A stretch of DNA of 64,000 nucleotides from Francisella tularensis subsp. holarctica (GTDB lineage Bacteria; Pseudomonadota; Gammaproteobacteria; Francisellales; CACEW01): NCBI GenBank assembly GCA_945879065.1, contig CAMCUU010000003.1, forward strand, positions 2,079-66,078, given 5' to 3'. Made by a program: the position numbers and the translations under genes. Under the pieces are notes generated by a model. That model had not been told where the DNA came from. It did no database searches and saw nothing but the letters and a program-made list of their open reading frames with translations. Positions 26,025 to 54,171 of this stretch are shown here, piece by piece (within the stretch, counting starts at the first letter, position 1; each line of letters opens with the position of its first letter).

Positions 26025-26554
26025 GAAGTATTCAATTAATTAATTCTTTACCCAAAGACGCTGTGTATTCCCAGATGGACTCTCCCGTCGATGTCTTAAC
26101 TTTAATTGGCTCCCATCAGGGGCTTCATGCGGTTTTATGGGAATCTGATTTTAAAAATCAAAAATATACGGATTTATTAGGGCAACTTAAAAAATCTGAA
26201 GATTTAAAAATAATTTTTGAAACTAAAAAACAGCTGTCTGAATATTTTTTAAAACAAAGAAAAAATTTTGATCTGGACTTGGTTTTATATGGCACAGAGT
26301 TTCAAAAAAAAGCCTGGGCTGAATTAAGAAAAATCCCCTATGGCCAAACTATTTCTTATGGTGAACAAGCCAAAAGAATGGGGGATAAAAATAAGGCCAG
26401 AGCCGTCGGCATGGCCAATGGCCAGAATCCCATTTCTATTATTATTCCATGCCATCGGGTGATTGGGTCAAATGGAAATTTGACGGGTTTTGGCGGTGGG
26501 TTAGATAAGAAAGAATTTTTATTAAATTTAGAAAAAACTGAGATGACATCATGA
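26006..26554 (+). CDS. ogt: methylated-DNA-protein-cysteine methyltransferase
   Basis: Active-site IIIPCHRVIGSNG (PCHRV motif). Overlaps the upstream ada-alkA gene. Confidence 0.85.
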   Translation: MEYKIMRSIQLINSLPKDAVYSQMDSPVDVLTLIGSHQGLHAVLWESDFKNQKYTDLLGQLKKSEDLKIIFETKKQLSEYFLKQRKNFDLDLVLYGTEFQKKAWAELRKIPYGQTISYGEQAKRMGDKNKARAVGMANGQNPISIIIPCHRVIGSNGNLTGFGGGLDKKEFLLNLEKTEMTS

Positions 26555-27906
26555 TGAATAGAAAAAATTTGGCCTTCACTGCGCTCTGCATGGGGTTCTT
26601 CATGGTGATCCTGGATGTCACTATCGTGAATGTTGTTTTGCCAACAATTGCTCATGCGCTCAAAACAACGCTGTCTGGTCTTCAATGGGTTGTGGATGGA
26701 TACACCTTAAGTTTTGCAGGATTTCTCTTATTAGTCGGAGAGTTCAGTGATCGATTTGGAGCAAAAATAATCTTTCAAATCGGACTCCTCTCTTTTATTT
26801 TAAGTTCTTTAGCCTGTGCCCTGTCTTTATCAATTACAGAACTAATCTTTTTTAGATTTATTCAAGGGGCCGCTGGAGCTCTTTTATTGCCCTCTTCTTT
26901 GGCATTAATTATGGGCCTTTACCAAGACGCAAAAGACAAAGCAAAAGCGATTGGAATTTGGGGATCCTTAGGAGGGCTAGCTTGTGCATCAGGTCCTTTT
27001 TTAGGCGGGACATTGGCTAGTTTATTTTCTTGGCGATCTATTTTTTTAGTGAACGTCGTGATTGGACTCATTAGCTTTTTTTTAGTTTCTAAAACGATCG
27101 AACGACCTCAAGTCATCCATTTAATCCAAAGAAAATTTGATTTTTTAGGTCTTCTTTCTGGCGTTGTGAGTATTTCGTTATTTTCCTATGGGTTGATAGA
27201 GGTCAGTCTTTATAGCTGGAACAGCCCTATTATTATTTTCTGTTTTATTGCGAGCTTCTTGGGGTTGATTTTATTCTTATGGATTGAGTCTCATGTGAGT
27301 CATCCTGTGCTTCCATTGGGTCTTTTTCAAAACAAGACAACCGCAATCGCACTCTCTGTTTCTTTTCTTTTAAATTTGGCTTTTTACGGCGAGCTATTCA
27401 TGATGCCGTTTTATTTTGAAAACTACCGGCATTATTCCGTGTTTATGACTGGGTTAGCCATTCTCCCCATCCCTGCTTTAGCGCTGATTGGCTCCTATTT
27501 AGGCGGAAAAATGACGGCGAGCAAAGGTCCAGGATCAACACTAGTCATTGGATTCTTAATTGCGGCACTCAGCCTTTTTTCGTTGCTGTTTTTAATAAAA
27601 GAAACAAGCCTTTTATATGTATGGCTGCTGATTCCATTTTTGACTCTGGGCTTTGGCTTATCTTTCGCAACGCCTGCTATGACGTTTGCTGCCATTCACT
27701 CTGTGGATCCAGCACGATCTGGAATTGCTTCTGCCGTTTTAAATACAGGCAACCAAGTTGGAAGCCTCATAGGTGTCGCTGCCTTTGGGACAATCGCAGC
27801 TATTTCCAGTCACTTTATGTTAGCCATGCATCTAACGCTCTTCTTAGCAGGGGCTCTACTTTTGATCGCTGCTTTTTTAAGCTTGACGATTATCAATGAA
27901 AAATAA
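26551..27906 (+). CDS. MFS transporter, DHA2 family
   Basis: LCMGFFMVILDVTIVNVVLP and GEFSDRFGAK motifs. ATGA overlap with ogt. Confidence 0.8.
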   Translation: MMNRKNLAFTALCMGFFMVILDVTIVNVVLPTIAHALKTTLSGLQWVVDGYTLSFAGFLLLVGEFSDRFGAKIIFQIGLLSFILSSLACALSLSITELIFFRFIQGAAGALLLPSSLALIMGLYQDAKDKAKAIGIWGSLGGLACASGPFLGGTLASLFSWRSIFLVNVVIGLISFFLVSKTIERPQVIHLIQRKFDFLGLLSGVVSISLFSYGLIEVSLYSWNSPIIIFCFIASFLGLILFLWIESHVSHPVLPLGLFQNKTTAIALSVSFLLNLAFYGELFMMPFYFENYRHYSVFMTGLAILPIPALALIGSYLGGKMTASKGPGSTLVIGFLIAALSLFSLLFLIKETSLLYVWLLIPFLTLGFGLSFATPAMTFAAIHSVDPARSGIASAVLNTGNQVGSLIGVAAFGTIAAISSHFMLAMHLTLFLAGALLLIAAFLSLTIINEK

Positions 27907-28023
27907 ATCACATAATCAAACCTGGTCTCATGAAAGATTGCAGCCTTAGAAAACCATAAAATTATTGACCACCAGCAAATTCCCCTATAAATTTCGCTCG
28001 TTTTAAATTTGGAGCACGCACCC

Positions 28024-28044
28024 ATGAATCAAAATCTCGTTTAG
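28024..28044 (+). promoter_or_regulatory. possible leader peptide uORF (MNQNLV) upstream of the ABC-F gene
   Basis: GGAG lies 9 nt upstream of the ATG. The 6-codon ORF ends 34 nt before the ABC-F start. Confidence 0.25.
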
Positions 28045-28078
28045 CTAATTTTTTCTTAAAGCTATTGGAGATTCATGT

Positions 28079-29530
28079 ATGCATTCAACTTTATCTATTC
28101 GAGATTTTTCTATCACCCTCCCCCATAAAATCTGTTTCGAGAACTTCAGCGCCGATATTTCGTACGGCGATAAGATTGCTTTGATCGGCCGAAATGGCGC
28201 TGGGAAATCGACCCTACTCCATCAAATTAAAGTTCTGGCTGAACAGTCTGGGATTAATCTTGGCTTCGTCCCTCAGATTCCAGAACCCACTGACCCACTC
28301 TTAAAAAATAAAAGCGGTGGCGAGCAATTTAATTATTTATTGTCTCAGGCCCTCTCGACCAATCCAGACTTTTTATTACTAGACGAACCGACCAACCACT
28401 TAGATCTCCAGAACAAAAAATCTTTGTTTAAATTTTTAGAGCACTTCCCTGGGACGGTCTTACTTATTTCCCATGATCCTGGCTTATTAAGTCAAAAATT
28501 CTTAAGTACTTTCTGGCACCTGGAAAACCAAAGAATCAGAATTTTTACAGGCGAATATCAAGATTATAAAAACTTGCTCTTCCAAGAAAAATCTAACTTA
28601 GAACATCAGAAAAAATTACTCAAACAAGCCCAAGAACAAGCTCATGAGTCCCTGATGAAAGAGCAGATTCGAGCTAAAAATTCAAAACAGAAAGGCCAAA
28701 AAAGTATTGAAAATAAAAAATGGCCGACGGTGACCTCTAAAACCAAAGCAGGCAGATCCCAAAAATCCGCTCTCAAAAAATCAAAACGAATTCACCAAGA
28801 GCAAGAAAATATTTCTGAACAACTTAAAAATGTTTTTATTCATGAAGAAATCAAACCCACTTTTACTTTAAGCCCTGAGCTCTCTTTATTAATTAAGACC
28901 CCCAGAGTCTTATTGAATATTTCGAATGGCAGCCTGGGTTATGCAAAAGATCAGCCCCTGCTTTCGAATATTTTCGTCTCTATTCAATCGGGAGATCGAG
29001 TCTGCCTACTGGGCAATAACGGCTCTGGTAAATCGACTTTACTTAAAGCTCTCTTGGAAGATTCCAATTTAATTAAAACAGGCGAGTGGCTTTTAGAACC
29101 CAATAAAAATATTGGCTATTTCGATCAGCATTATTCTATTTTTCACCCAAAAGAAATTTCAGAATTAACCCCCTTAGAATTTCTAAAAAACTTGAGTCCT
29201 GATTGGACAGAATCTGAGCTAAGAGCCCACCTGGCTAGTTTTTTATTTCGCAAAACAGAAGAAGTGAATACGCCAATCTTAAAACTATCAGGGGGCGAAT
29301 TGGCCAGATTGGCTTTGGCCAGCATCGCAATTAAAACTCCAGCAGTTTTATTTTTAGACGAGATCACTAATAACTTGGATCTAGAAACCAGAGCGCATGT
29401 GATTGAAGTTTTAAAATCTTATCCCGGAACTTTAATCGCTATTTCCCATGACCCTGATTTCTTGGAGGCGATTGGGATTAATGCAAAAATAGAGGTCTCT
29501 GATTTTTATCAAAAGCCCACCGACCTCTAG
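28079..29530 (+). CDS. ABC-F ATPase (no TM domain), antibiotic-resistance (ARE) type suspected
   Basis: Two ABC cassettes (GRNGAGKST / GNNGSGKST, SGGE signatures, LLLDEPTNHLD / LFLDEITNNLD) are joined by a ~90-aa Lys/Gln-rich linker. 483 aa. Confidence 0.8.
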   Translation: MHSTLSIRDFSITLPHKICFENFSADISYGDKIALIGRNGAGKSTLLHQIKVLAEQSGINLGFVPQIPEPTDPLLKNKSGGEQFNYLLSQALSTNPDFLLLDEPTNHLDLQNKKSLFKFLEHFPGTVLLISHDPGLLSQKFLSTFWHLENQRIRIFTGEYQDYKNLLFQEKSNLEHQKKLLKQAQEQAHESLMKEQIRAKNSKQKGQKSIENKKWPTVTSKTKAGRSQKSALKKSKRIHQEQENISEQLKNVFIHEEIKPTFTLSPELSLLIKTPRVLLNISNGSLGYAKDQPLLSNIFVSIQSGDRVCLLGNNGSGKSTLLKALLEDSNLIKTGEWLLEPNKNIGYFDQHYSIFHPKEISELTPLEFLKNLSPDWTESELRAHLASFLFRKTEEVNTPILKLSGGELARLALASIAIKTPAVLFLDEITNNLDLETRAHVIEVLKSYPGTLIAISHDPDFLEAIGINAKIEVSDFYQKPTDL

Positions 29531-29541
29531 GAACACGAATT

Positions 29542-30573
29542 TTGAATCAAGACCTCATCCAAAAAATCTGCCAAAAATTAAATCTAGGAGCCCCCACAAG
29601 CCCAGTCGAAAGAATCTACGGCGGCCTTTTACATAAAATGTGGAAACTCACAACAGATCAAAACTCTTACGCCATCAAAGCGCTTTCATCCCATATCGAC
29701 TTTAAAAACCAATCAATTAGACGCAATTACGAACTCTCTGAAAAAATTGCCACCCTATTTGCTCACGATGGCATCCCCGCTGTTAGCGCTATTCATCAAG
29801 ACGGTGACACTCTCACCGAAATCGACGGAACATTTTTCCTAATTTACCCCTGGGTCAATGCGAAGACCTTGTCACCTCATGAACCCATCTCAGATCAACA
29901 GGGCATTAAAATCGCTGAGTTAATTTCAAAGCTTCACCAAATTAATTTAAATATTTTCTCGCTTCCACCCAGCCAAGAACCCGAATTTAATAGTTTAAAT
30001 TCAGAGGAAATTCTGAATGCCATTAAAAATTCACAAACCCACAAAGCCCCCTTCGCCCACGAACTTACGAAACATCAAAAAATTCTTCTTGCGCTCAATC
30101 AAAAATATTTAGAGGCCATCCCATTATTAAAAAAACACTCTGTCATTAGCCATGGGGATTTGGATCCCAAAAATGTTCTCTGGGATGCTGAGGATCAGCC
30201 TATCTTGATTGACTGGGAATCCGCTCGCAGACTCAATCCAACCCATGAGATCATTAATGCTTGTTTAGATTGGAGCGGCATTACTCTTGAGAACAATTTT
30301 AATCGACCTCTATTTTTTAAAATGCTGGAGAGTTATCAAAACGCCGGAAGTGTATTAGATCAAAATCTTTTGGAACCGGCTTTCTATGCTGTTGCTGGCA
30401 ATTGGATTAATTGGATGGTCTTTAATATTCAGAGATTTTGTGAGACCCAAGATTCAGAGGTTTTAAACTTAAGTGCTGAGCAAGTGAACCAAACATTGAG
30501 GACCATTGTCTTCTTGGAAAATCTTATTCCAGCTCTAATATCAGAAATAAAAAACCAAGAGACTAAAAAATGA
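29542..30573 (+). CDS. APH-family phosphotransferase (aminoglycoside/macrolide kinase-like)
   Basis: Catalytic HGDLDPKNVLWD followed by ILIDWESA (Brenner and DxD-like motifs). TTG start 12 nt after the ABC-F stop. Confidence 0.75.
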   Translation: MNQDLIQKICQKLNLGAPTSPVERIYGGLLHKMWKLTTDQNSYAIKALSSHIDFKNQSIRRNYELSEKIATLFAHDGIPAVSAIHQDGDTLTEIDGTFFLIYPWVNAKTLSPHEPISDQQGIKIAELISKLHQINLNIFSLPPSQEPEFNSLNSEEILNAIKNSQTHKAPFAHELTKHQKILLALNQKYLEAIPLLKKHSVISHGDLDPKNVLWDAEDQPILIDWESARRLNPTHEIINACLDWSGITLENNFNRPLFFKMLESYQNAGSVLDQNLLEPAFYAVAGNWINWMVFNIQRFCETQDSEVLNLSAEQVNQTLRTIVFLENLIPALISEIKNQETKK

Positions 30574-31178
30574 ACACCCCTTCACAACCCGGTAAAGTAA
30601 TTTTTCTGAATGGCCCCACCAGCTCAGGAAAAACAAGCCTAGCTAAAGCCCTACAAGACAAATTGCCAGAACCTTATTTGCATATCGGGATTGATCGCCT
30701 GATTGGAATGATGCCAGAGCATTTAAATAACTGGACTGGAGATTTGAATAACACGGATGGCTTTTCTTTTACTCAAGAAAAAGATTCATCAGGACATTTA
30801 ATCTCGCAGCTTCAAATTGGCCCTTATGCTGACAAGATTTGCGATCTTCTCAGAACACTGGCCATCACTATGCTCAATCAGGGATTTAATTTAATCATCG
30901 ATGAAGTCTGTCTTCGAAAAAACAGCTTTGAAAATTGGCAAAAAATATTAGCCCCCTACTCTACATTTTATATTGGCGTTCAGGCTTTCTTAGACATTTT
31001 AGAATCACGTGAGAAACAACGAGGCGACAGAATATTAGGCTCTGCCAGATCTCAAAATGTTTTGGTTCATCAAGATAATCTTTATGACCTGATGCTTGAT
31101 ACGAGTGACGCATCTATTGCTCAGTGCGCAGAACTTGTTTTAAAAAATTTAAGTCTTTTCCAGATGAAAACCCCTTAA
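30570..31178 (+). CDS. chloramphenicol phosphotransferase-like (CPT) P-loop kinase
   Basis: VIFLNGPTSSGKTSLAKALQDKLPEPYLHIGIDRLIGMMP resembles the N-terminus of Streptomyces CPT (recalled from memory). ATGA overlap with the APH gene. Confidence 0.7.
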   Translation: MNTPSQPGKVIFLNGPTSSGKTSLAKALQDKLPEPYLHIGIDRLIGMMPEHLNNWTGDLNNTDGFSFTQEKDSSGHLISQLQIGPYADKICDLLRTLAITMLNQGFNLIIDEVCLRKNSFENWQKILAPYSTFYIGVQAFLDILESREKQRGDRILGSARSQNVLVHQDNLYDLMLDTSDASIAQCAELVLKNLSLFQMKTP

Positions 31179-31250
31179 AATATAAACTAAACTTGCAAAA
31201 ACTATCGAAAATCGATATTATTTGAAAGTTTTAATCACTTTAAGACATTT

Positions 31251-32039
31251 ATGCAAATACAAATTTTCATTGATCAACTACGCAGTCAGGGCCGATTTTC
31301 ATTTACCATCACAGAGTTGGAACAAGCACTAGAAGCTAATAGAGCTGCTGCTCTTAATGCCTTATCCAGACTTAAAAAAAGTGGAGCTATTGCAAGTCCC
31401 GTTCATGGATTTTATTTGATACTCACTCCTGAATATCGCGTATTAGGCTGCCTTCCTGCTGATATGTTTATTGCTGATCTCATGGCCCATCTCGAACAGC
31501 CCTATTACGTTGGCCTATTAAGCGCTGCGCAGTTTTATGGCGCTGCACATCAAAAACCACAGAGATTTCAAGTGGTCATTAAACAAAATCGTCGAGCGAT
31601 TCAATGCGGTCGAATCATGATTGAGTTTATTGCGAATCAACATATGGAATTGCTCCCAACTCAATCATTTAATACAGCCTCTGGAACTATTTTTGTTGCA
31701 AGCCCTGAAGCCATTGCCTTAGACATGCTAAGTAATCAAAAACATGCGGCTGGCATAGATCATATTGCAACTGTTTTGCTGGAATTATCAGAAAGCCTCA
31801 ATGCTGAAAAATTGTTATTATTAGCCCGCACTTATCCAGAAACTGCTTGGCTTCAACGACTAGGATACTTACTGGAGACTCTTGGTTTTAATGAGTTATC
31901 AGAAAATATTTTAAAAATTTTAAAAGAAAAAAAAGTAAATTGGGTTCGCCTAGCCCCTCGAATTTCTTCAATGCAATTATCCAGAAATTCAAAATGGAAA
32001 ATTATTGTCAACACCACTGTGGAGCCCGATGAATTATGA
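31251..32039 (+). CDS. AbiEi-family type IV antitoxin / transcriptional regulator
   Basis: N-terminal wHTH (FTITELEQALEANRAAALNALSRLKKSGAI) plus the PYYVGLLSAAQFYGAAHQ motif. 4-nt overlap with the AbiEii gene. Confidence 0.7.
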   Translation: MQIQIFIDQLRSQGRFSFTITELEQALEANRAAALNALSRLKKSGAIASPVHGFYLILTPEYRVLGCLPADMFIADLMAHLEQPYYVGLLSAAQFYGAAHQKPQRFQVVIKQNRRAIQCGRIMIEFIANQHMELLPTQSFNTASGTIFVASPEAIALDMLSNQKHAAGIDHIATVLLELSESLNAEKLLLLARTYPETAWLQRLGYLLETLGFNELSENILKILKEKKVNWVRLAPRISSMQLSRNSKWKIIVNTTVEPDEL

Positions 32040-32884
32040 TTCCTATTGCTTATATCACTCAATGGAGGCAATTCGCGCCCTGGATTGATAATGCTCAAGT
32101 GGAGCAGGATTTAATTCTCTCAAGAGTTATTGTTGACCTATTTTCAGATCCTTTTTTAAGACAAGAATTGGCTTTTCGTGGCGGGACCGCGCTCAATAAA
32201 TTATTTTTCAAACCAGCTGCAAGATATAGCGAAGATATTGATCTCGTCCGAACTTCAACGGGAGCCATCACCGACATCATTGATGCATTAAGATCTCGCT
32301 TGGATCCTTGGCTGGGTGAACCTCAAAGAGAGCGAAAAGAAAATGGTTTTAAACTCAGATATATCTTTAATCCTGAGGGCTCACCCAATATCAAACAAAA
32401 AATAAAAATAGAAATTAATACGCGTGAGTGCTTTACCGTCTATGACAGAATTCTTGAACCATTTTCAGTCAATTCTTCTTGGTTTTCTGGCGAGTCTTTA
32501 GTCAACACTTATCAGTTGGAAGAATTAATGGCGACCAAACTTAGAGCTTTGTATCAACGTAAAAAAGGCCGGGATTTATTTGACCTATGGTTCGCCTTAC
32601 AAAACGACTCTTTAGATTCAGAAAAGATTATTCATGCTTTTCAGCATTATATGAACCAAGAAAATAAATCGATTACACGCGAATTATTTGAGCTCAATCT
32701 CGATCAAAAATTAGAAACCTCTTTTTTTATGGAAGATATTAATATCTTGCTTTCGCCCGACCTAAAAAATAAAACTTCGGTCAGTACTGAAGGAAATTGG
32801 AATATGTTTAATGCGGCTCAGCTCGTCAAAAATAAGCTCTTAGTAAAATTACCCCCTTCTATTTCAAAGAGCGCAAAGAAATGA
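32036..32884 (+). CDS. AbiEii/AbiGii nucleotidyltransferase toxin (DUF1814)
   Basis: FRGGTALNKLFF...RYSEDIDL NTase motifs and C-terminal ELMATKLRALYQRKKGRDLFDLW. Confidence 0.8.
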   Translation: MIPIAYITQWRQFAPWIDNAQVEQDLILSRVIVDLFSDPFLRQELAFRGGTALNKLFFKPAARYSEDIDLVRTSTGAITDIIDALRSRLDPWLGEPQRERKENGFKLRYIFNPEGSPNIKQKIKIEINTRECFTVYDRILEPFSVNSSWFSGESLVNTYQLEELMATKLRALYQRKKGRDLFDLWFALQNDSLDSEKIIHAFQHYMNQENKSITRELFELNLDQKLETSFFMEDINILLSPDLKNKTSVSTEGNWNMFNAAQLVKNKLLVKLPPSISKSAKK

Positions 32885-33414
32885 CCCAACCCTCCTTCCA
32901 CTTTCAAGATTTAACGCTTCAAGACGCCGAAATCCTCGCCGATTATTTTAAAAAAATCGGCTGGCATAAGCCGCTTTCTGGATTCTTAATTTACCTCCAA
33001 GAAGCAGAGCTGGGATTAAGAAAAAACATCGTTGCCAAAAATTCAGCAGGCCAGATTTTGGGCTATGTGACTGTTCTATGGGAATCCGACCATCCGTATT
33101 TTCAAGAAGGAAAAATCCCAGAGATTAAAGATTTAAATATTCTCCCAGAGTTTCAAAAACAAGGTTTTGGAAGAGCTTTACTTAAAAAATCTGAGCAAGA
33201 AATTTATAAAAAATTAGGACCTGATCAAACCATTGGCATTGGTGTTGGGATTCTTAAAGATTATGGCCCTGCCCAAAAACTTTATGTCCAAGAAGGCTAC
33301 GTTCCCAACGCTGAAGGGGTGACGGCGAATCATCAAAACTTAAATTATGGCGATACAGGATCTGTTGATGATGATTGGGTTTTATGGATGACTAAGAAAA
33401 AAGGAGAAGTTTAA
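32881..33414 (+). CDS. GNAT N-acetyltransferase (177 aa)
   Basis: IKDLNILPEFQKQGFGRALLKK matches GNAT motif A. ATGA overlap with the abiEii stop. Confidence 0.75.
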   Translation: MTQPSFHFQDLTLQDAEILADYFKKIGWHKPLSGFLIYLQEAELGLRKNIVAKNSAGQILGYVTVLWESDHPYFQEGKIPEIKDLNILPEFQKQGFGRALLKKSEQEIYKKLGPDQTIGIGVGILKDYGPAQKLYVQEGYVPNAEGVTANHQNLNYGDTGSVDDDWVLWMTKKKGEV

Positions 33415-44822: not shown

Positions 44823-47800
44823 CTAAGTTGAACGGCCTCTACTTTTTGACATCGACTGACTCTCCGAATCACCCGACCCAAGCCTCCGCTCAATTTTCCC
44901 CACCCGATCCAACGCCTCCCCCATCACATCCCTGCTGAGGGTTCCCTGTTTCATCGCCGCTCGAATCTCTGCTGTATCCATTTGTGAAAGCATTGGAACA
45001 TCGGCCTGTTCAGACAGCACATTCCAACGCTCAGGATTTTTTAATTCCTTAACGAGGCCACTTTGTTCTTGCTCAATACCCTCTATTTTTTCATCCAATG
45101 ACTTTTGAAGCGCCTCATCTTCTAAATAATTAAATTTCTTGATGCCGGCTTCCATGTATTGTTCATCGAGATCAAACAATCGCTCCATTAACTCAACCGA
45201 ACTCTTATTTTTATAAAGATCCGGCTTAGCATGCTTGGTGGCCTCATCGATGATTTTATTAATTTCTCGCATTTCCACTGAGGCTAATTTTGCTGATCTT
45301 AAAAGCATGGGGTAATGTGCCGCTCTTTCTTTTTCAATTTCACTTGCCATTTTAAAAGCCTTATCAAAATCTTTTCTCTGAATCGCATTGACCAGAGAGC
45401 TAGCCCTCACTAACCTCTCGTGCGCCTTGGAATCACGTTCCAATCTCTCCGGGCTTAAGCGGTTTTTCTCAATCGCCACTGCCAATATTTCCTTGTTTTG
45501 ATAGATCTCATGACCCAAGGCGTTTTGCTTAATTTTCAGCTCTTGGAAAGCCTCATAGCCTGGATGATCCCAGAGTTTTTTATCTGATTCTAAAGAAGCT
45601 TTGAGCTGGAGATATTCCGCCCGAACTTCTTTTGAAAGATCCGCATAAGCCGCGACTTTTCGAGCCTCTTCTCGATGAAAGATTTTATTTCCTGGCTGGA
45701 GCACCCGCTCTGAAACCCGCTCCAAATAAGCCTGGTAATTAGTTAAATAGAGCCAGCTATCAATCACTTTATCTTTCAAACTAATTTTTTGAGCTGCACG
45801 ACGGGCTGATTCATCTGCATCAAATCCACGACGAATACCAAACCCCAAGGGGTAATCAATAATGGCGTCTTTAATCCCCACTCGAGATAAGCTGGTTTTT
45901 AAAGCGTCTAACGACCGATGAAATTCTTGAGAGGCGAAAATTTGAACGTTGGATATATGCCTCGACAAAGCCACGTAGGCTAAATGCCGATCCCAGCCAA
46001 AACCGTCAATAAGAACAAAAACTAAATTCTTTGTTACGCCCTGCGTCTTATGAACAGTCGCCGCATAGCCATAAGTAAAATGCTCATACTCTTTGGCTGA
46101 GAATTGAATGGTTTTTCCATTGTCTAATCTCACCGAAATCTGGGATCCAGAAATAGCTATCACAGAGCCGAAGCTACCGTTCCTCACACCCAACTGCTTA
46201 TTATTTTTTAAGAATAAGAGCCTCTCATTGACGCCAACTTCTAATACCCGGCCATCCAATTTGAAAACCTTCGGATCCATGATCCAGCTTTGTTTTAGAA
46301 TTTCTTCACGGGCTAGAAGATTCAATTCAACGACGCTCTTATTTTGATGCGCCAAAATAATTCGGTTCGGTAAATTCTCGAGACTTACGTCACTCGCCCA
46401 ACGGCTGACTAAATCTTTTGAGCTTTTTGCTTTATCTTCTGCAAAATGAATATGTCCGGCTTGATGGTAATAATCCAGCGCCCTTCCCGTCTGGCCATTG
46501 GATAGGTCACCCGTTGCAATGCGATGCGCTTCAATTCGTTGCCTCAGGATTTCATCCATTTCAACAAAGGGTACAGTGCTCATTAAAGATTTAAGCCCTG
46601 ACCCTGCGCCTAAGGATTGAGTTTGCTCCAGGTCCCCAATGACGGATAATTTTGAACCTGTTTTTGAAACAAGATTAACTAATTTGGCCATGTCATCACT
46701 GTCCGTCATACCCGCTTCATCCATCACAACAATGTCATTGGCATCTAATTTTAAATAGCCCCGCTCCAGGCGATATTTAAAAGCGTGAATCGTATTTGAA
46801 CTAATCCCGGCATCATTTTCTAATCCTTCTGCCGCAATGCCTGATAAAGATATTCCATGGACTTTAAACCCGGACGATTCCCAAATGTCTTTGGCGACTT
46901 TCATCATATAAGTCTTACCAGTCCCTGCTTTACCGGCGACTAAGCTCAAATCTCCACCCAAGACAATCGCTCTCAGCGCCTTCGCTTGAGAGTTATTCAG
47001 GCCATATTCCGAAATCTTCTGTTCAACAAGTTTCTTATTCACAGAATGCGAATATTTCAAAGACAGCTTCTCAGCCTGATCCAACATCTTGGCTTCTTGT
47101 TTAAACCGATAAATGGTTGTGTAGTGATCTCGGCCGTCTTCACCCACGCCCAAATTAATTAAATGCTCATGGGCTTTAACCTTAGCAAAGAGATTTAAAA
47201 AATCTTCATGGGACTCAGCGCGTTCATGAAGTATTTTTTGAATATCCCGCTCTGAAAAAACGGCATGCTTGGCTTCTAAATTTCGAACCAATTGATCAAT
47301 CTCAGCTTTAGAAATCTCGACCTTCTCAGGCAAGTATTTATGAATTTCATAGGCTAAATGATGAGCATGAAAACGCTCTTGAGTCTGGGCCATCTTATGC
47401 AACAAGGCCTCAGGATTTTCATGAATATGGGCATAATTTTGAGATCGAATCTCTTTATTCATGGCAATGCGTTCTAATTCAATCCCGCGTTCGTTCATGT
47501 TTTTAGTGCCAATGCCTTCATGGATACTGGGCTGAAGATCCACGCCTTGATCGACAAAACTGCGATGATCAATCTTGGTCTCAAATCCATGGCTCTTAAG
47601 ATGCGTATTGGCATAATTGGCCCATTGAGCTCTTAGCGAATGCAAAAATTCTTTTTTATTCCATTCAACAACTTTTAAGCCAAAGCCATCGGCTAATAAC
47701 TCTCGCATAGTCAGCATGACATGCACGTGAGGATTCCCATCCTCCCAGTGAATTGCGAAATCCGCGATCATTCCTTTCTGAACAAACTGGTCTTTTATAA

Positions 47801-48167
47801 AACTTCTAGCTAGCGCTAAGTTTTGATCTTCATTGAGCTCAATGGGCAAAGAAAATTCAAATTCACGGGCTAATTGCGAATCTTTTCTTTTTTCAAATAA
47901 TTCAACTTTGTTCCAAAGTGTCTCTGAGGCTAGGTGAGTTTTTTCAGAATCGATTTCTGAAGAAACCGCCAAACTTTTCACCCATTGAGGCGAACTCTCA
48001 GGAACCATCACTTCGCAATGAATGACATTTTGTTTACTCGAATAATTATGAGTCTCTCCTAAATATTCATCGAACATCTTGGCGGCATGACGATAGGCAG
48101 CCGCTTTTACGACACTTCTGCCCTCTGAACGCTTAATGATTTTTGCTGTGAAGTGATAAATGGCCAT
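44823..48167 (-). CDS. traA: conjugative relaxase, Ti-type TraA (MobA/MobL N-terminus + TraA/RecD-like helicase)
   Basis: MAIYHFTAKIIKRSEGRSVVKAAAYR and HWEDGNPHVHVM (3-His motif). Helicase Walker A GKAGTGKT and VVMDEAGM. The start is taken at the conserved MAIYH rather than the upstream ATG at 48197. Confidence 0.85.
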   Translation of the reverse strand: MAIYHFTAKIIKRSEGRSVVKAAAYRHAAKMFDEYLGETHNYSSKQNVIHCEVMVPESSPQWVKSLAVSSEIDSEKTHLASETLWNKVELFEKRKDSQLAREFEFSLPIELNEDQNLALARSFIKDQFVQKGMIADFAIHWEDGNPHVHVMLTMRELLADGFGLKVVEWNKKEFLHSLRAQWANYANTHLKSHGFETKIDHRSFVDQGVDLQPSIHEGIGTKNMNERGIELERIAMNKEIRSQNYAHIHENPEALLHKMAQTQERFHAHHLAYEIHKYLPEKVEISKAEIDQLVRNLEAKHAVFSERDIQKILHERAESHEDFLNLFAKVKAHEHLINLGVGEDGRDHYTTIYRFKQEAKMLDQAEKLSLKYSHSVNKKLVEQKISEYGLNNSQAKALRAIVLGGDLSLVAGKAGTGKTYMMKVAKDIWESSGFKVHGISLSGIAAEGLENDAGISSNTIHAFKYRLERGYLKLDANDIVVMDEAGMTDSDDMAKLVNLVSKTGSKLSVIGDLEQTQSLGAGSGLKSLMSTVPFVEMDEILRQRIEAHRIATGDLSNGQTGRALDYYHQAGHIHFAEDKAKSSKDLVSRWASDVSLENLPNRIILAHQNKSVVELNLLAREEILKQSWIMDPKVFKLDGRVLEVGVNERLLFLKNNKQLGVRNGSFGSVIAISGSQISVRLDNGKTIQFSAKEYEHFTYGYAATVHKTQGVTKNLVFVLIDGFGWDRHLAYVALSRHISNVQIFASQEFHRSLDALKTSLSRVGIKDAIIDYPLGFGIRRGFDADESARRAAQKISLKDKVIDSWLYLTNYQAYLERVSERVLQPGNKIFHREEARKVAAYADLSKEVRAEYLQLKASLESDKKLWDHPGYEAFQELKIKQNALGHEIYQNKEILAVAIEKNRLSPERLERDSKAHERLVRASSLVNAIQRKDFDKAFKMASEIEKERAAHYPMLLRSAKLASVEMREINKIIDEATKHAKPDLYKNKSSVELMERLFDLDEQYMEAGIKKFNYLEDEALQKSLDEKIEGIEQEQSGLVKELKNPERWNVLSEQADVPMLSQMDTAEIRAAMKQGTLSRDVMGEALDRVGKIERRLGSGDSESQSMSKSRGRST

Positions 48168-48197
48168 AACGCCGAGCACTCTACATAAAAAGCACAA

Positions 48198-52848: not shown

Positions 52849-54171
52849 TTATTCAGTAATTAAAGTCTCTTTTAAAGAAGCTTCAAATGTTTCCATACTC
52901 TTGATGGACTCTGAAAGCGCTGACTGAGAGAGTAAATAGGAATGAAAAGCTCTTTTAACCAGAGGCGATTCCATGGGGTTTCTTTTTTTCTTGGCTAATT
53001 TATCGACAGCTGTTGCTTGTTCAATCACGTCTTGTTTCTCGGCAAGGAAGTCAGCTGTGAATTTAGCAAGACTCACTTCATCTAAATTTTCTAAAAATTT
53101 AGATACTTCAAGATTGACATATTTCTGATATTTCTCTTTGAGGTCATCTAATGTTCGGCGAATATTTGTATCGCTCTCTTCTTTTTTGCGCTTGCTAGAT
53201 TTTTCAACTTTTACGTCAAAAGCAGCCACTTCTTTAGAAAATCCTTCTTTAATAGCTTTAACGACATAACCCGCAATATTTCCTCGCTTGTCTTTATAGG
53301 CTGAAGTATTCCTCACATAGTCAATGCCAGAAAATATTTTCTCAAGAGGAACGGTCAACAACAAATGCTCAACCATTCTTTTTTCAACACTAAATTCATT
53401 AACTAAAATCTCTTCTGCTCTTAATGCCCTTTCATCATTGATAGTCTCTGATAAAGGAAGCTGCCGTTTATATTCAACATTGAATTTAACATGAGTGACT
53501 GAAGTTCCTTTTTTCTGAAATTCAGGATCCACTTTAATATCTGAGACCGAATTAATTTCAGTAATCGCTGGTTTCAAAACCCATTTATTAAAATCTTTAT
53601 AGGATTCGTAGCGTTTTTCAACTCCAAAAATATCTCTTAAATCTTGGACAGAGAACCAGCGTGTCCCACCAGGGCTCGTGACGTAACGGAGGCATTGCTC
53701 ATATAGAACCAGGGAATAAACACTGGCAAATTTCGACTGCATATCCAATGTTAACGAAGCATATTGCTGTGGATAATGAAAAAGATCAGGAATGCCATCT
53801 CCAAATTTCCAACAAAATTCTCTTGTTTCTGCATTCCATCTTAAACTCGAGATAAGAACAGAGCGTTGGTAACTTTTTGATTCATCAACCTTTGGGACAT
53901 CTCCAAAGGCATTCCAAGTAAATATAATTTTTTGCAAATCTTCAAAAGCCGTACTGAGTAGCTTCCAGTTATTTCCTGTGTAACCAAAATAGGTATGGAG
54001 AGTATCAATATGGATCTTATGCCAATCACCTGTTTTTAATTCATTATAAACATGGTAAACGCAAACATTGATCAGCTTTCTCGCAACGAGACTCACAGCA
54101 GAAGAAGGTTTGCATTGAATGCCAGCAACACTCTTCTTCAACTTCAGCTGTTTATCATCAGAGGTCATCAC
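52849..54171 (-). CDS. plasmid replication initiator (Rep, iteron-binding type)
   Basis: 440-aa ORF adjacent to the iteron array, with an iteron copy in its own promoter. N-terminal region typical of wHTH Rep proteins. GGGAG RBS. Confidence 0.7.
   Translation of the reverse strand: MMTSDDKQLKLKKSVAGIQCKPSSAVSLVARKLINVCVYHVYNELKTGDWHKIHIDTLHTYFGYTGNNWKLLSTAFEDLQKIIFTWNAFGDVPKVDESKSYQRSVLISSLRWNAETREFCWKFGDGIPDLFHYPQQYASLTLDMQSKFASVYSLVLYEQCLRYVTSPGGTRWFSVQDLRDIFGVEKRYESYKDFNKWVLKPAITEINSVSDIKVDPEFQKKGTSVTHVKFNVEYKRQLPLSETINDERALRAEEILVNEFSVEKRMVEHLLLTVPLEKIFSGIDYVRNTSAYKDKRGNIAGYVVKAIKEGFSKEVAAFDVKVEKSSKRKKEESDTNIRRTLDDLKEKYQKYVNLEVSKFLENLDEVSLAKFTADFLAEKQDVIEQATAVDKLAKKKRNPMESPLVKRAFHSYLLSQSALSESIKSMETFEASLKETLITE

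What the first reader, a model, noticed from the sequence alone, without database searches (positions are those of the whole stretch)
28024..31178. msr/mph-like arrangement: short ABC-F ATPase + phosphotransferase + chloramphenicol-phosphotransferase-like kinase in one operon
**The ABC-F.** It is 483 aa with two cassettes, no TM domain and a ~90-aa basic inter-domain linker. That size and architecture match ribosome-protection (ARE) ABC-F proteins rather than housekeeping ABC-Fs.

**Its neighbours.** 12 nt downstream is an APH/Mph-family kinase (HGDLDPKN). Overlapping that is a CPT-like P-loop kinase.

**Why it matters.** The ABC-F-then-kinase order mirrors the msr(E)-mph(E) macrolide-resistance operon. 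If the host is a Legionella-like pathogen, a plasmid-borne macrolide/phenicol resistance cassette would be clinically relevant.
Basis: partly seen in the sequence, partly recalled or inferred. Interest (0 to 1): 0.6.

Follow-up and report, generated by a model that had tools for sequence, protein, structure and literature searches.

The report
Inducible ribosome-protection gene with two kinases
A mobilizable plasmid of an uncultured freshwater bacterium carries a likely antibiotic-inducible ribosome-protection ATPase followed by two small-molecule kinases; it looks like a resistance operon, but it is only an analogue, not a relative, of the clinical msr(E)-mph(E) macrolide cassette, and its drugs are unknown.

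Summary
The three genes are there as described: a 483-aa ABC-F (28079-29530), a 343-aa APH-fold kinase 11 nt downstream (29542-30573), and a 202-aa CPT-family kinase overlapping it by 4 nt (30570-31178).

**Not msr/mph.**
- The ABC-F is 28% identical to Msr(E) and scores 231 bits against a 680-bit Msr cut-off.
- The kinase scores at most 16 bits on any Mph model; the Mph(E) control scores 696.

**An ARE (antibiotic-resistance ABC-F) reading is still favoured.**
- The ABC-F belongs to a distinct, uncharacterised family found in Legionellales-like gammaproteobacteria, Holospora and Midichloriaceae.
- The family is accessory: 17 of 400 genomes of the class hold it.
- It is sister (98/88 support) to the ARE5+BAF2+BAF3 clade, not to EttA, Uup, YheS or YbiT.
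- It has an Msr-length linker, no arm and no C-terminal domain.
- 28 of 33 distinct upstream regions carry a 5-6-codon uORF (0.35 expected by chance). The uORF's 3' end is complementary to the ABC-F Shine-Dalgarno (SD) sequence, as in a leader-peptide attenuator.

**Context.**
- Promoter, uORF, ABC-F and kinase travel as one block. The third slot varies (CPT-like, GNAT or other).
- The replicon is a plasmid (Rep_3 initiator, TraA relaxase).

Drug specificity, pathogen status and clinical relevance are not shown. The scan had already noted the uORF on this same window.

The parts
27965..27993 (+). Promoter-like site (TTGACC-17-TAAATT). It marks the left edge of the conserved mobile block.
   Evidence: Consensus scan. 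DNA homology to L001, L003, L006 and L007 starts at 27957-27959, with unrelated sequence upstream.
28024..28044 (+). Leader uORF MNQNLV* with SD GGAG at 28011-14. Codons 4-5 (AAUCUC, 28033-38) are complementary to the ABC-F SD region.
   Evidence: A 5-6-codon uORF preceded by an SD is present in 28 of 33 distinct family leaders, against 0.35 expected.
28033..28073 (+). Predicted SD-sequestering helix. AAUCUC (28033-38) pairs with GAGAUU (28068-73, overlapping SD GGAG at 28067-70). It encloses a small hairpin, UAGCU (28042-46) with AGCUA (28060-64), that contains the uORF stop codon.
   Evidence: RNAfold of each leader on its own gives the same topology in nearly all family members. Duplex-energy controls support it. 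Column-wise covariation is not significant.
28079..29530 (+). ABC-F ATPase, 483 aa, a candidate ARE-type ribosome-protection protein. Both Walker A, signature, Walker B (DE) and H-loop motifs are intact. NBD1 is minimal, the linker is long and basic, and there is no C-terminal domain.
29542..30573 (+). APH/choline-kinase-fold small-molecule kinase, 343 aa, HGDLDPKN, substrate unknown. It is not an Mph.
   Evidence: Family contexts among GNATs, APHs and efflux pumps.
30570..31178 (+). CPT-family P-loop kinase, 202 aa. The P-loop GPTSSGKT and the equivalent of catalytic Asp37 are conserved. This is a variable third cassette.
   Evidence: PF07931 136 bits. NF033114 100 bits against a 250-bit cut-off. 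S. venezuelae CPT E = 3.7e-20 with alignment. Homologs. Swap at the ATGA junction.
26551..27906 (+). Upstream DHA2-family MFS efflux pump. This is context and lies outside the conserved block.
   Evidence: TIGR00711 230.6 bits against a 230.2-bit cut-off. MFS pumps are adjacent or overlapping to ABC-F homologs in L012, L013, L015, L018, L019 and L021.
31251..32884 (+). AbiEi/AbiEii toxin-antitoxin pair. Together with the CPT-like gene, it is inserted between the kinase and its usual GNAT partner.
   Evidence: Comparison with L006 and L134, where the GNAT directly follows the kinase.
32881..33414 (+). GNAT acetyltransferase, 177 aa. In relatives it is the gene translationally coupled to the kinase.
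   Evidence: 84-89% DNA identity to the gene after the kinase in L001, L003, L006 and L134.
44823..48197 (-). MobA/MobL-AAA_30 (TraA-type) relaxase, a plasmid marker.
   Evidence: The nearest plasmid relaxases are in Aquicella lusitana and Fluoribacter dumoffii, at 33-38% identity.
52849..54171 (-). Rep_3 replication initiator, a plasmid marker.

Best explanation
This is an accessory, plasmid-borne antibiotic-defence operon. One promoter (about 27965) drives a short leader, an ARE-type ABC-F and two small-molecule kinases.

**Proposed mechanism**
1. Without drug, the last codons of the 6-codon uORF pair with the ABC-F Shine-Dalgarno, so little ABC-F is made.
2. A ribosome-targeting drug slows elongation or termination on the uORF. 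The stalled ribosome holds the helix open and frees the SD. The ABC-F is translated, and with it the coupled kinases.
3. The ABC-F binds the ribosomal E site, inserts its long basic linker towards the peptidyl-transferase centre or exit tunnel, and dislodges the drug.
4. The APH-fold kinase and the CPT-family kinase phosphorylate and inactivate a drug, either the same one or others.

**Shown**
- Gene order and the conserved block.
- Family membership and non-membership of each protein.
- ARE-like architecture and tree position.
- Patchy distribution and plasmid location.
- The conserved uORF and its complementarity to the SD.

**Inferred**
- Ribosome protection, drug induction, kinase substrates and co-transcription.

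The unit is an independent assembly that is functionally analogous to msr(E)-mph(E). It is not related to it by descent.
For: 1. **Family and placement.** The protein belongs to a large family of 457-485-aa proteins at 43-51% identity. The family is monophyletic (100/100) and sister to ARE5 (LmrC, VarM)+BAF2+BAF3, at 89/96 and then 98/88 with more references. It is separate from E. coli EttA, Uup, YheS and YbiT and from ARE1. The best NCBIfam model is 'ribosomal protection-like ABC-F' at 314 bits, more than 100 bits above Uup, YheS, YbiT and EttA.
2. **Architecture.**
   - H-loop1 to Walker A2 is 181 aa. MsrA has 175; Uup, YheS and YbiT have 142-143.
   - There is no arm: Walker A1 to signature is 42 aa, against 117-131 in housekeeping proteins.
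   - The C-terminal tail is 28 aa, like Msr.
3. **Accessory and mobile.**
   - The family is present in 10 of 54 high-quality genomes of the order.
   - It is absent from the other genome of the same genus.
   - It is present in 17 of 400 genomes of the class.
   - The host has separate Uup-like and EttA-like genes.
   - The contig carries Rep_3 and a relaxase.
   - The block sits in four unrelated contexts.
4. **Leader.**
   - 28 of 33 leaders have an SD-preceded 5-6-codon uORF, for example MKIIS, MNTIA, MRNIS and MNQNLV. Shuffles give a mean of 0.35 and a maximum of 3.
   - Independent folds all pair the uORF 3' end with positions -20 to -5 of the ABC-F.
   - Own-partner duplex energy is -11.4 kcal/mol, against -7.2 for swapped partners (0 of 5000 permutations as low) and -4.4 for shuffled arms.
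   - Short uORFs with SD sequestration are the documented control of ARE-ABCFs: MsrDL MYLIFM stalls at its stop codon (PMC10314930), and CplR, VmlR and LsaA have uORFs (PMC10201436).
5. **Neighbours.**
   - MFS pumps overlap or adjoin homologs.
   - The kinase family lies among GNATs, other APHs, MATE pumps and beta-lactamase-fold genes in Legionella and relatives, and is sometimes fused to a GNAT.
   - Known AREs are likewise linked to a second determinant: msr(E)-mph(E), optrA-fexA, and abc-f-estT.
6. **CPT-like gene.** It keeps the P-loop and the Asp37 equivalent.
Against: - There are no functional data for any family member, and no paper was found on ABC-F proteins of this group.
- All three proteins are below NCBI's curated cut-offs: 314 of 380, at most 37 of 194, and 100 of 250 bits.
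- BAF2 and BAF3 are only predicted AREs, and deep ABCF nodes are poorly resolved.
- Several reference sequences are trimmed copies from a supplement.
- In most distant relatives the ABC-F stands alone, and many carriers are small-genome host-associated bacteria. A physiological translation role is therefore possible.
- The ABC-F/kinase link is separable. L004 has the ABC-F alone, and L134 has kinase-GNAT with only a remnant of the ABC-F.
- Column-wise covariation of the leader helix is not significant: 63.6% of cells paired against 61.5% in shuffles, with 51 of 500 shuffles as high. RNAalifold found no consensus structure.
- The duplex-energy test is inflated by related sequences.
- Structural neighbours of the kinase are generic, at 11-16% identity.
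Confidence: 0.6

Rival explanations
1. It is a macrolide (and phenicol) resistance cassette in the specific sense the first reader proposed. The ABC-F displaces macrolides like Msr(E), the APH-fold kinase is a macrolide 2'-phosphotransferase, and the CPT-like kinase phosphorylates chloramphenicol.
For: - The gene order matches msr(E)-mph(E).
- The linker is Msr-length and NBD1 is short.
- The hydrophobic 5-6-aa leader ending at a stop codon recalls MsrDL MYLIFM, which senses macrolides.
- CPT-family membership holds, with catalytic residues conserved.
- Mph(2')-I is among the structural neighbours of the kinase, at TM 0.53-0.60.
Against: - The ABC-F is outside ARE1. It is 28% identical to Msr(E) and scores 231 of 680 bits on the Msr model.
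- Its nearest characterised relatives (ARE5) act on lincosamides and streptogramin A, not macrolides (Murina 2019 Table 1).
- The kinase scores at most 16 bits on Mph models. Mph is only rank 22 among fold matches, behind YihE, YtaA, APH(9)-Ia, NahK and choline kinases.
- The Brenner motif differs from that of Mph(E).
- The CPT equivalog cut-off is missed, at 100 of 250 bits.
Confidence: 0.15
2. The ABC-F is not a resistance factor. It is a lineage-specific translation factor that rescues particular stalled ribosomes, and the uORF is a feedback sensor of translational status. The kinases and GNAT are unrelated detoxification or metabolite kinases that merely share a variable accessory island.
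For: - In 16 class-level loci the gene mostly stands alone on chromosomes of small-genome bacteria.
- The ABC-F and kinase modules are separable.
- Phmmer scores to ABCF1 and YheS equal those to VmlR.
- The protein is below the NF000355 cut-off.
- uORF sensors of general translation stress exist outside resistance genes, for example the topAI leader (PMC12121999, listed).
Against: - The family is patchy: 4% of genomes in the class, and absent from the other genome of the same genus.
- It is on a plasmid and in mosaic islands.
- One copy is disrupted by an insertion without apparent consequence (L021).
- The host already has Uup-like and EttA-like genes.
- The architecture and tree position are ARE-like.
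- Efflux pumps and drug-modifying enzyme families recur next to it.
Confidence: 0.2
3. The cluster belongs to a toxin-antitoxin or phage-defence island. The CPT-like P-loop kinase would act as a zeta-type toxin, or the ABC-type ATPase as an Abi component, working with the adjacent AbiEi/AbiEii pair.
For: - AbiEi/AbiEii lie directly downstream.
- ABC-F homologs sit beside RelB/YafQ and AbiE modules in L004 and L007.
- There are weak Pfam hits to Zeta_toxin (21.7 bits) and AAA_21.
Against: - The CPT model scores 136 bits against 21.7 for Zeta.
- The AAA_21 hit is the generic ABC ATPase signal.
- The AbiE pair carries its own upstream piece and a promoter-like site, and it moves independently of the ABC-F and kinase.
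- TA modules are ordinary residents of plasmid accessory regions.
Confidence: 0.04

Closest known systems
msr(E)-mph(E) macrolide resistance operon (Acinetobacter/Enterobacterales plasmids; reference locus L010)
   Same: - An ABC-F with no membrane domain is followed closely by an APH-fold kinase on a mobile replicon.
- The ABC-F has a long linker, a short NBD1 and a short C-terminus.
   Different: - 28.4% identity to Msr(E), and outside ARE1 in both trees.
- The kinase is not in the Mph family: at most 16 bits, against 696 for Mph(E) itself.
- A third (CPT-like) kinase is present.
- The two units were assembled independently.
ARE5 (LmrC, VarM) with the predicted ARE groups BAF2 and BAF3 of Murina et al. 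2019 (PMC6723617)
   Same: This is the sister clade of the window's family (98/88). BAF3 includes a plasmid 'ribosomal protection-like ABC-F' next to the macrolide hydrolase gene estT, with a similar linker length of 178 aa.
   Different: - The window's family sits on a long stem of its own (0.9-1.2 substitutions per site).
- Its NBD1 is far shorter: Walker A to signature is 42 aa, against 106 aa.
- It lives in Legionellales-like, Holospora and Midichloriaceae lineages rather than in Actinobacteria or Bacteroidetes.
Leader-peptide attenuators of ARE-ABCF genes (MsrDL MYLIFM; CplR MR[I/M]; VmlR MIN; LsaA MAGN)
   Same: A very short conserved uORF lies upstream, with the main-gene SD sequestered in RNA structure. 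[quoted passage not shown]
   Different: - The uORF itself forms the anti-SD arm, giving a single long-range helix.
- No intrinsic terminator was predicted, so the control looks purely translational.
- From my own knowledge, this resembles the cat/cmlA type of leader more than the transcriptional attenuators of msrD or vmlR.
- The peptide consensus M-x-x-[I/L/F]-[S/A] is different.
- There is no Rfam match.
Chloramphenicol 3-O-phosphotransferase CPT of Streptomyces venezuelae (PDB 1QHX and others)
   Same: Same Pfam family. The P-loop and the catalytic Asp37 position align, with E = 3.7e-20.
   Different: It scores 100 bits against a 250-bit equivalog cut-off, carries insertions around residues 55-75, has an unknown substrate, and is fused to a GNAT in one relative (P0243).
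APH(9)-Ia spectinomycin kinase of Legionella pneumophila; YihE/SrkA; YtaA; NahK
   Same: These are the best structural neighbours of the AlphaFold model (pLDDT 92.8), with TM 0.55-0.72. Size is similar (about 330 aa) and the HGDxxxxN catalytic loop is shared.
   Different: Identity is 13-16%, there is no sequence-level PDB hit, and no substrate can be inferred.

Membership tests
Msr family ABC-F (ARE1) | Reaches the curated NCBIfam Msr model NF000168 (cut-off 680 bits) | tested here: not met
   230.9 bits.
Msr family ABC-F (ARE1) | Groups with Msr/Vga sequences in a phylogeny | tested here: not met
   ARE1 (MsrA, MsrE, MsrI-like, VgaA, VgaC) forms its own clade at 99/100. The window's family lies elsewhere.
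ARE-type (ribosome-protection) ABC-F | Two ABC cassettes with intact catalytic motifs and no membrane domain | tested here: met
ARE-type (ribosome-protection) ABC-F | Inter-domain linker (ARD) extended relative to housekeeping ABC-Fs | tested here: met
   H-loop1 to Walker A2 is 181 aa, against 142-143 in Uup, YheS and YbiT and 175 in MsrA.
ARE-type (ribosome-protection) ABC-F | Reaches NCBIfam NF000355 'ribosomal protection-like ABC-F' (cut-off 380 bits) | tested here: not met
   313.9 bits. It is the best-scoring model but falls below the cut-off.
ARE-type (ribosome-protection) ABC-F | Variable presence within lineages and carriage on mobile elements (criterion of Murina et al. 2019) | tested here: met
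   Present in 10 of 54 and 17 of 400 genomes. Absent from the other genome of the same genus. On a plasmid, in mosaic contexts.
ARE-type (ribosome-protection) ABC-F | Regulatory short uORF with attenuator structure upstream | tested here: inconclusive
   uORF conservation is strong: 28 of 33 leaders against 0.35 expected. SD complementarity appears in every fold. Column-wise covariation is not significant, and induction was not tested.
ARE-type (ribosome-protection) ABC-F | Confers resistance to a ribosome-targeting antibiotic | not testable with these tools
   Needs MIC assays.
Mph macrolide 2'-phosphotransferase | Reaches any curated Mph model (cut-offs 500-650 bits) | tested here: not met
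   The best score is Mph(C) at 16.1 bits. The Mph(E) control scores 696 bits on its own model and 189-236 bits on six other Mph models (MphA/B/C/F/L/M).
Mph macrolide 2'-phosphotransferase | APH/eukaryotic-like kinase fold with an HGD catalytic loop | tested here: met
   PF01636 at 69.7 bits, and the AlphaFold/Foldseek result. The loop is HGDLDPKN, against HGDLYAGH in Mph(E).
CPT (chloramphenicol phosphotransferase) family | Pfam PF07931 above its gathering score (22 bits) | tested here: met
   136.1 bits over the full profile.
CPT (chloramphenicol phosphotransferase) family | NCBIfam equivalog NF033114 (cut-off 250 bits), meaning the same function as S. venezuelae CPT | tested here: not met
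   100.3 bits.
CPT (chloramphenicol phosphotransferase) family | P-loop and general-base Asp (Asp37 of CPT) conserved | tested here: met
   GPTSSGKT aligns to GGSSAGKS, and GIDRL aligns to GVDSL. The role of Asp37 is from my own knowledge of the CPT structure papers.

The most novel reading that the evidence does not exclude
The ABC-F defines a previously unrecognised antibiotic-resistance ABCF subfamily, a candidate 'ARE9'.
- It is native to protist- and amoeba-associated Proteobacteria (Legionellales-like lineages, Holospora, Midichloriaceae).
- It is switched on by a conserved pentapeptide leader (M-x-x-I/L-S/A-stop) that senses a particular natural translation inhibitor met in that niche.
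- In the window's lineage it has been combined with dedicated kinases and an acetyltransferase that inactivate the same compound. That would give a self-contained sense, protect and destroy module that moves between plasmids.
Probability: 0.3. Interest if true: 0.65.

Novelty: new member of a known kind. Interest (0 to 1): 0.45.

Why it matters
**Scope of ABC-F resistance.** If the ABC-F protects ribosomes, ABC-F-mediated resistance would extend to a large, unstudied family native to Gram-negative, host-associated environmental bacteria. Legionella relatives are among them, and macrolides are first-line drugs against Legionella. The family would be a reservoir that current AMR databases cannot flag, because every curated cut-off is missed.

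**A ready test object.** The conserved 5-6-codon leader and its anti-SD helix make a compact, ready-made reporter. It could reveal which drug class is sensed and how such short peptides stall ribosomes.

**How accessory operons are built.** The exact swapping of genes at ATGA stop/start overlaps shows how multi-mechanism operons are assembled in these plasmids.

**Limits.** There is no evidence of a clinical threat. The host is an uncultured freshwater bacterium, and no substrate is known.

Tried and rejected
- **The search for related loci on genome contigs with the family alignment.** The patterns were generic ABC motifs. Only 2 of 80 loci were family members. I used the genome search plus fetch from genomes instead.
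- **RNAalifold on 19 distant leaders.** No consensus structure came out, because the variable middle puts the arms out of register.
- **Named-structure count on that alignment.** It was not significant, so I do not claim covariation.
- **Rfam on the leader.** No match.
- **PDB sequence search with the kinase.** No hit.
- **Paper searches for ABC-F in Legionella.** Nothing specific. Supplement tables of Murina 2019 as stored do not list Legionella, Holospora or B. gladioli. I could therefore not read off the published subfamily label. PAF1, DAF1, DAF2 and DAF3 were excluded as homes by the trees.
- **The look-up of sequencing runs.** It was closed, so there are no expression or co-transcription data.
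- **Integron-type cassette array.** Considered and dropped. The junctions are translational overlaps, not attC-like sites, although I ran no formal attC search.
- **Producer self-resistance.** The B. gladioli plasmid homolog sits among MATE, methyltransferase and hydrolase genes. No biosynthetic genes lie near the window's operon.
- **Structure model of the ABC-F.** Not run. I judged that it would add little beyond the linker metrics.

Full report
**Observation.** The three co-directional ORFs are as described.
- The ABC-F is at 28079-29530 (483 aa).
- The APH-fold kinase is at 29542-30573 (343 aa, TTG start). It lies 11 nt after the ABC-F stop, with AGGA overlapping that stop.
- The CPT-family kinase is at 30570-31178 (202 aa) and overlaps the kinase by ATGA.
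- Pfam gives two ABC_tran domains and no membrane domain for the first, APH (69.7 bits) for the second and CPT (136 bits) for the third.
- The linker (about residues 164-272) has 23 K/R, 12 D/E and a pI of 10.
- The stated start, 28024, is the ATG of a 6-codon uORF.

**Replicon and host.**
- The window lies on contig C3 of a 1.95-Mb, 91-contig MAG that is 94% complete.
- The same contig carries a Rep_3 initiator (52849-54171) and a MobA/MobL-AAA_30 relaxase (44823-48197).
- The nearest plasmid relaxases are in Aquicella lusitana and Fluoribacter dumoffii, at 33-38% identity.
- 'Plasmid-borne' is therefore supported. 'Legionella-like pathogen' is not: this is an uncultured organism.
- The genome also holds a Uup-like gene, an EttA-like gene and a second, partial copy of this ABC-F at 91% identity.

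**Is it msr/mph?** No.
- Against 72,556 plasmids, the known AREs are 28-31% identical: Vga(C) 31.0%, Msr(I)-like 29.9%, Msr(A) 28.7%, Msr(E) 28.4% and OptrA 28.5%. The best hit is an unnamed ABC protein of a Burkholderia gladioli plasmid, at 43.8%.
- NCBIfam scores are: generic 'ribosomal protection-like ABC-F' 313.9 bits (cut-off 380), Msr 230.9 (680), Vga 221 (725), Uup 206, YheS 196, YbiT 186 and EttA 168.
- The kinase hits no Mph model above 16 bits. Mph(E) from the reference locus L010 scores 696 bits on its own model and 189-236 bits on six other Mph models (MphA/B/C/F/L/M).
- BLASTP of the kinase against Mph(E) gives 23% identity over 114 aa around the catalytic loop (HGDLDPKN against HGDLYAGH).
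- The kinase has no sequence-level PDB relative.
- Its AlphaFold model has pLDDT 92.8. It matches YihE, YtaA, APH(9)-Ia, N-acetylhexosamine kinase, choline/ethanolamine kinases and homoserine kinase ahead of Mph(2')-I, which is rank 22. All are at 11-16% identity.
- The third protein is a CPT-family member. It matches S. venezuelae CPT at E = 3.7e-20, with the P-loop and the Asp37 position aligned. It is far below the equivalog cut-off, at 100 of 250 bits.

**What the ABC-F is.**
- It belongs to a large family of 457-485-aa proteins at 43-51% identity. Source names include Tatlockia, Berkiella, Holospora, Midichloriaceae and unnamed Gammaproteobacteria.
- I built two maximum-likelihood trees (LG+C20).
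  - Full-length references came from annotated plasmids and E. coli K-12.
  - Trimmed representatives came from the supplement of Murina et al. 2019.
- Both trees give the same picture.
  - The family is one clade (100/100) on a long stem.
  - It is sister to {ARE5 LmrC/VarM + BAF2} + {BAF3 + the Empedobacter plasmid abc-f next to estT}, at 89/96 and then 98/88.
  - It is separate from ARE1, ARE3, ARE4, ARE6, ARE7, PAF1, DAF1-3, YdiF and the four E. coli housekeeping proteins.
- Murina et al. name BAF2 and BAF3 as strong ARE candidates. They also give patchy presence within genera as an ARE indicator.
- The family is patchy. It occurs in 10 of 54 high-quality genomes and 7 of 20 genera of the order. 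It is absent from the other genome of the same genus. It occurs in 17 of 400 genomes of the class.
- Its architecture is ARE-like.
  - H-loop1 to Walker A2 is 181 aa (MsrA 175; Uup, YheS and YbiT 142-143).
  - Walker A1 to signature is only 42 aa (Msr 63-66; housekeeping 117-131), so there is no arm.
  - The tail after H-loop2 is 28 aa (Msr 26-30; Uup and YheS 140-154).
- All catalytic motifs are intact, and the linker holds family-invariant residues such as KWPT.

**The leader.**
- In the window clade the uORF is MNQNLV, with variants MNQSLI and MDQNLV. It follows a GGAG SD.
- Distant relatives have a 5-codon uORF after a GAGG SD: MKIIS, MKIIL, MKISV, MNTIA, MRNIS, MRSIS, MSHLS, MDYFS, MNNIS, MNNIF, MNIHS, MNTHS, MQIIS and MDTIS.
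- 28 of 33 distinct upstream regions have such a uORF ending 25-105 nt before the ABC-F start. Shuffled regions give a mean of 0.35 and a maximum of 3.
- Each leader was folded on its own. Nearly all give the same topology: the last two sense codons plus the stop codon of the uORF pair with positions -20 to -5 of the ABC-F, which is its SD. One or two hairpins are enclosed.
- In the window, AAUCUC (28033-38) pairs with GAGAUU (28068-73).
- Own-partner duplex energy averages -11.4 kcal/mol. Swapped partners give -7.2 (0 of 5000 permutations as low) and shuffled 5' arms give -4.4. Related sequences inflate this test.
- Several positions show more than one Watson-Crick pair type.
- A column-wise count on a MAFFT alignment is not significant, and RNAalifold found no consensus. 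The helix therefore rests on conserved complementarity, not on demonstrated covariation.
- There is no Rfam match, and no terminator was predicted between the uORF and the gene.
- Short uORFs with SD sequestration are the documented control of ARE-ABCF genes.
  - MsrDL (MYLIFM) stalls with UAA in the A site (PMC10314930).
  - CplR, VmlR, VmlR2 and LsaA have 3-4-codon uORFs, and translational attenuation is sufficient for cplR (PMC10201436).
- This supports the earlier first-reader note on the same window (e1-3519100).

**Modularity.**
- DNA homology to four related metagenomic contexts starts at 27957-27977. In three of the four (L001/L003, L006, L007) that is at the promoter-like site (TTGACC at 27965); in L004 it starts just downstream, at 27977.
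- For L001, L003 and L006 it ends exactly at the ATGA that joins the kinase to the next gene (30570-74).
- The third slot then differs.
  - The window has the CPT-like gene.
  - L006 and L134 have a GNAT directly.
  - L001 has a 321-aa ORF whose C-terminal half is that GNAT.
- In the window the same GNAT (32881-33414) comes after the CPT-like gene and AbiEi/AbiEii. That stretch of about 2.3 kb therefore looks inserted.
- L007 has ABC-F, AbiEi, AbiEii and another APH. L004 has the ABC-F alone.
- L134 keeps only the last ~84 nt of the ABC-F gene in front of kinase-GNAT. The ABC-F was deleted there.
- The ancestral unit in this clade was probably ABC-F, kinase and GNAT, but the modules are separable.
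- In distant relatives the ABC-F is mostly a stand-alone gene with its leader.
- Exceptions within the order:
  - L012 has GNAT, GNAT, a GNAT-APH fusion (APH 46% identical to the window's kinase), a YchJ-like gene, the ABC-F and an overlapping MFS.
  - L013 has ABC-F, MFS and GNAT.
  - L015 has MFS then ABC-F.
  - L018 and L019 have an MFS and a LysR regulator within 4 kb.
- The kinase family itself sits among GNATs, other APHs, MATE pumps and beta-lactamase-fold genes in Legionella fallonii, on a Legionella sp. plasmid and in MAGs. It is sometimes fused to a GNAT.
- A CPT-GNAT fusion also exists.
- Known AREs show the same habit of pairing with a second determinant: msr(E)-mph(E), optrA-fexA, an Msr-like gene with an MFS, and abc-f with estT.

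**Reading.**
- The best explanation, at about 0.6, is a drug-inducible ARE-type ABC-F co-expressed with two drug-modifying kinases on a mobilizable plasmid. It is analogous to msr(E)-mph(E) but was assembled independently.
- Which drug is involved is open. The nearest characterised clade, ARE5, acts on lincosamides and streptogramin A. The CPT-like gene hints at phenicol-like compounds. The hydrophobic leader that stops at a stop codon recalls a macrolide sensor. None of these hints is decisive.
- The main rival, at about 0.2, is a non-resistance translation factor sitting in a variable island.

**Limits.**
- Some reference sequences in the trees are trimmed.
- ARE2 and ARE8 are not represented.
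- Deep nodes of the ABCF tree are unresolved.

Noticed in passing
L021:5135-9049 (G010:C101): An ABC-F homolog is split into residues 1-137 and 142-468 by an insert of about 2.5 kb. The insert carries 103-, 115- and 552-aa ORFs, which is an IS66-like layout. An MFS gene follows, and Ada/AlkA and Ogt genes lie 3 kb away, echoing the window's upstream genes.
   Followed up: partly
L130 (Legionella fallonii chromosome LN614827.1, 2742051-2753034): A co-directional array of at least ten GNAT, APH and GrpB-GNAT genes includes a 47%-identical homolog of the window's kinase. Beta-lactamase-fold genes follow. It looks like a large bank of small-molecule-modifying enzymes.
   Followed up: no
window 30570 and 32881; L001, L006, L134 junctions: Gene modules (CPT-like, AbiE pair, GNAT) are exchanged exactly at ATGA stop/start overlaps. 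Translational coupling is therefore kept after each swap. The mechanism of this precise cassette exchange is unexplained.
   Followed up: partly
window 31188-31231: A 44-nt stretch after the CPT stop contains a promoter-like site (31193-31221). It is shared with the ABC-F/AbiEi spacer of L007. The AbiE module therefore seems to move with its own upstream piece.
   Followed up: partly
L134:5287-5381: About 84 nt of the 3' end of the ABC-F gene survive upstream of a kinase-GNAT pair. This is a deletion scar showing loss of the ABC-F in a close relative.
   Followed up: yes
L012:3806-5446; proteins P0150, P0171, P0218, P0243: There are natural fusions of an Acetyltransf_3 GNAT to this kinase family (518-546 aa) and of a CPT-like domain to a GNAT (314 aa). 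In layout they recall bifunctional AAC-APH enzymes.
   Followed up: no
L001:5758-7318: Just upstream of the 95%-identical ABC-F copy lie an APH(6)-I-like gene (255 bits, N-terminally short) and an APH(3')-like gene. An integrase and a RepB-like gene lie further upstream.
   Followed up: no
G000:C88:2694-3569: A second copy of the ABC-F (91% identity, residues 1-293) is cut off by the end of a short contig in the same MAG.
   Followed up: no
window 28079-28570 (NBD1): Only about 12 residues separate the Q-loop (VPQ) from the signature KSGGE. This resembles the Vga pattern (IPQLK...STKSGGE), although the family is not in ARE1. It is either convergent loss of the helical subdomain or unresolved deep kinship.
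   Followed up: partly
L011 (Burkholderia gladioli BSR3 plasmid bgla_1p, 203793-205235): The only family member found on a catalogued plasmid has no uORF. It sits at the end of a co-directional run of MATE efflux, methyltransferase, ParB-N-domain and alpha/beta-hydrolase genes. It may be part of a biosynthetic or self-resistance cluster.
   Followed up: no
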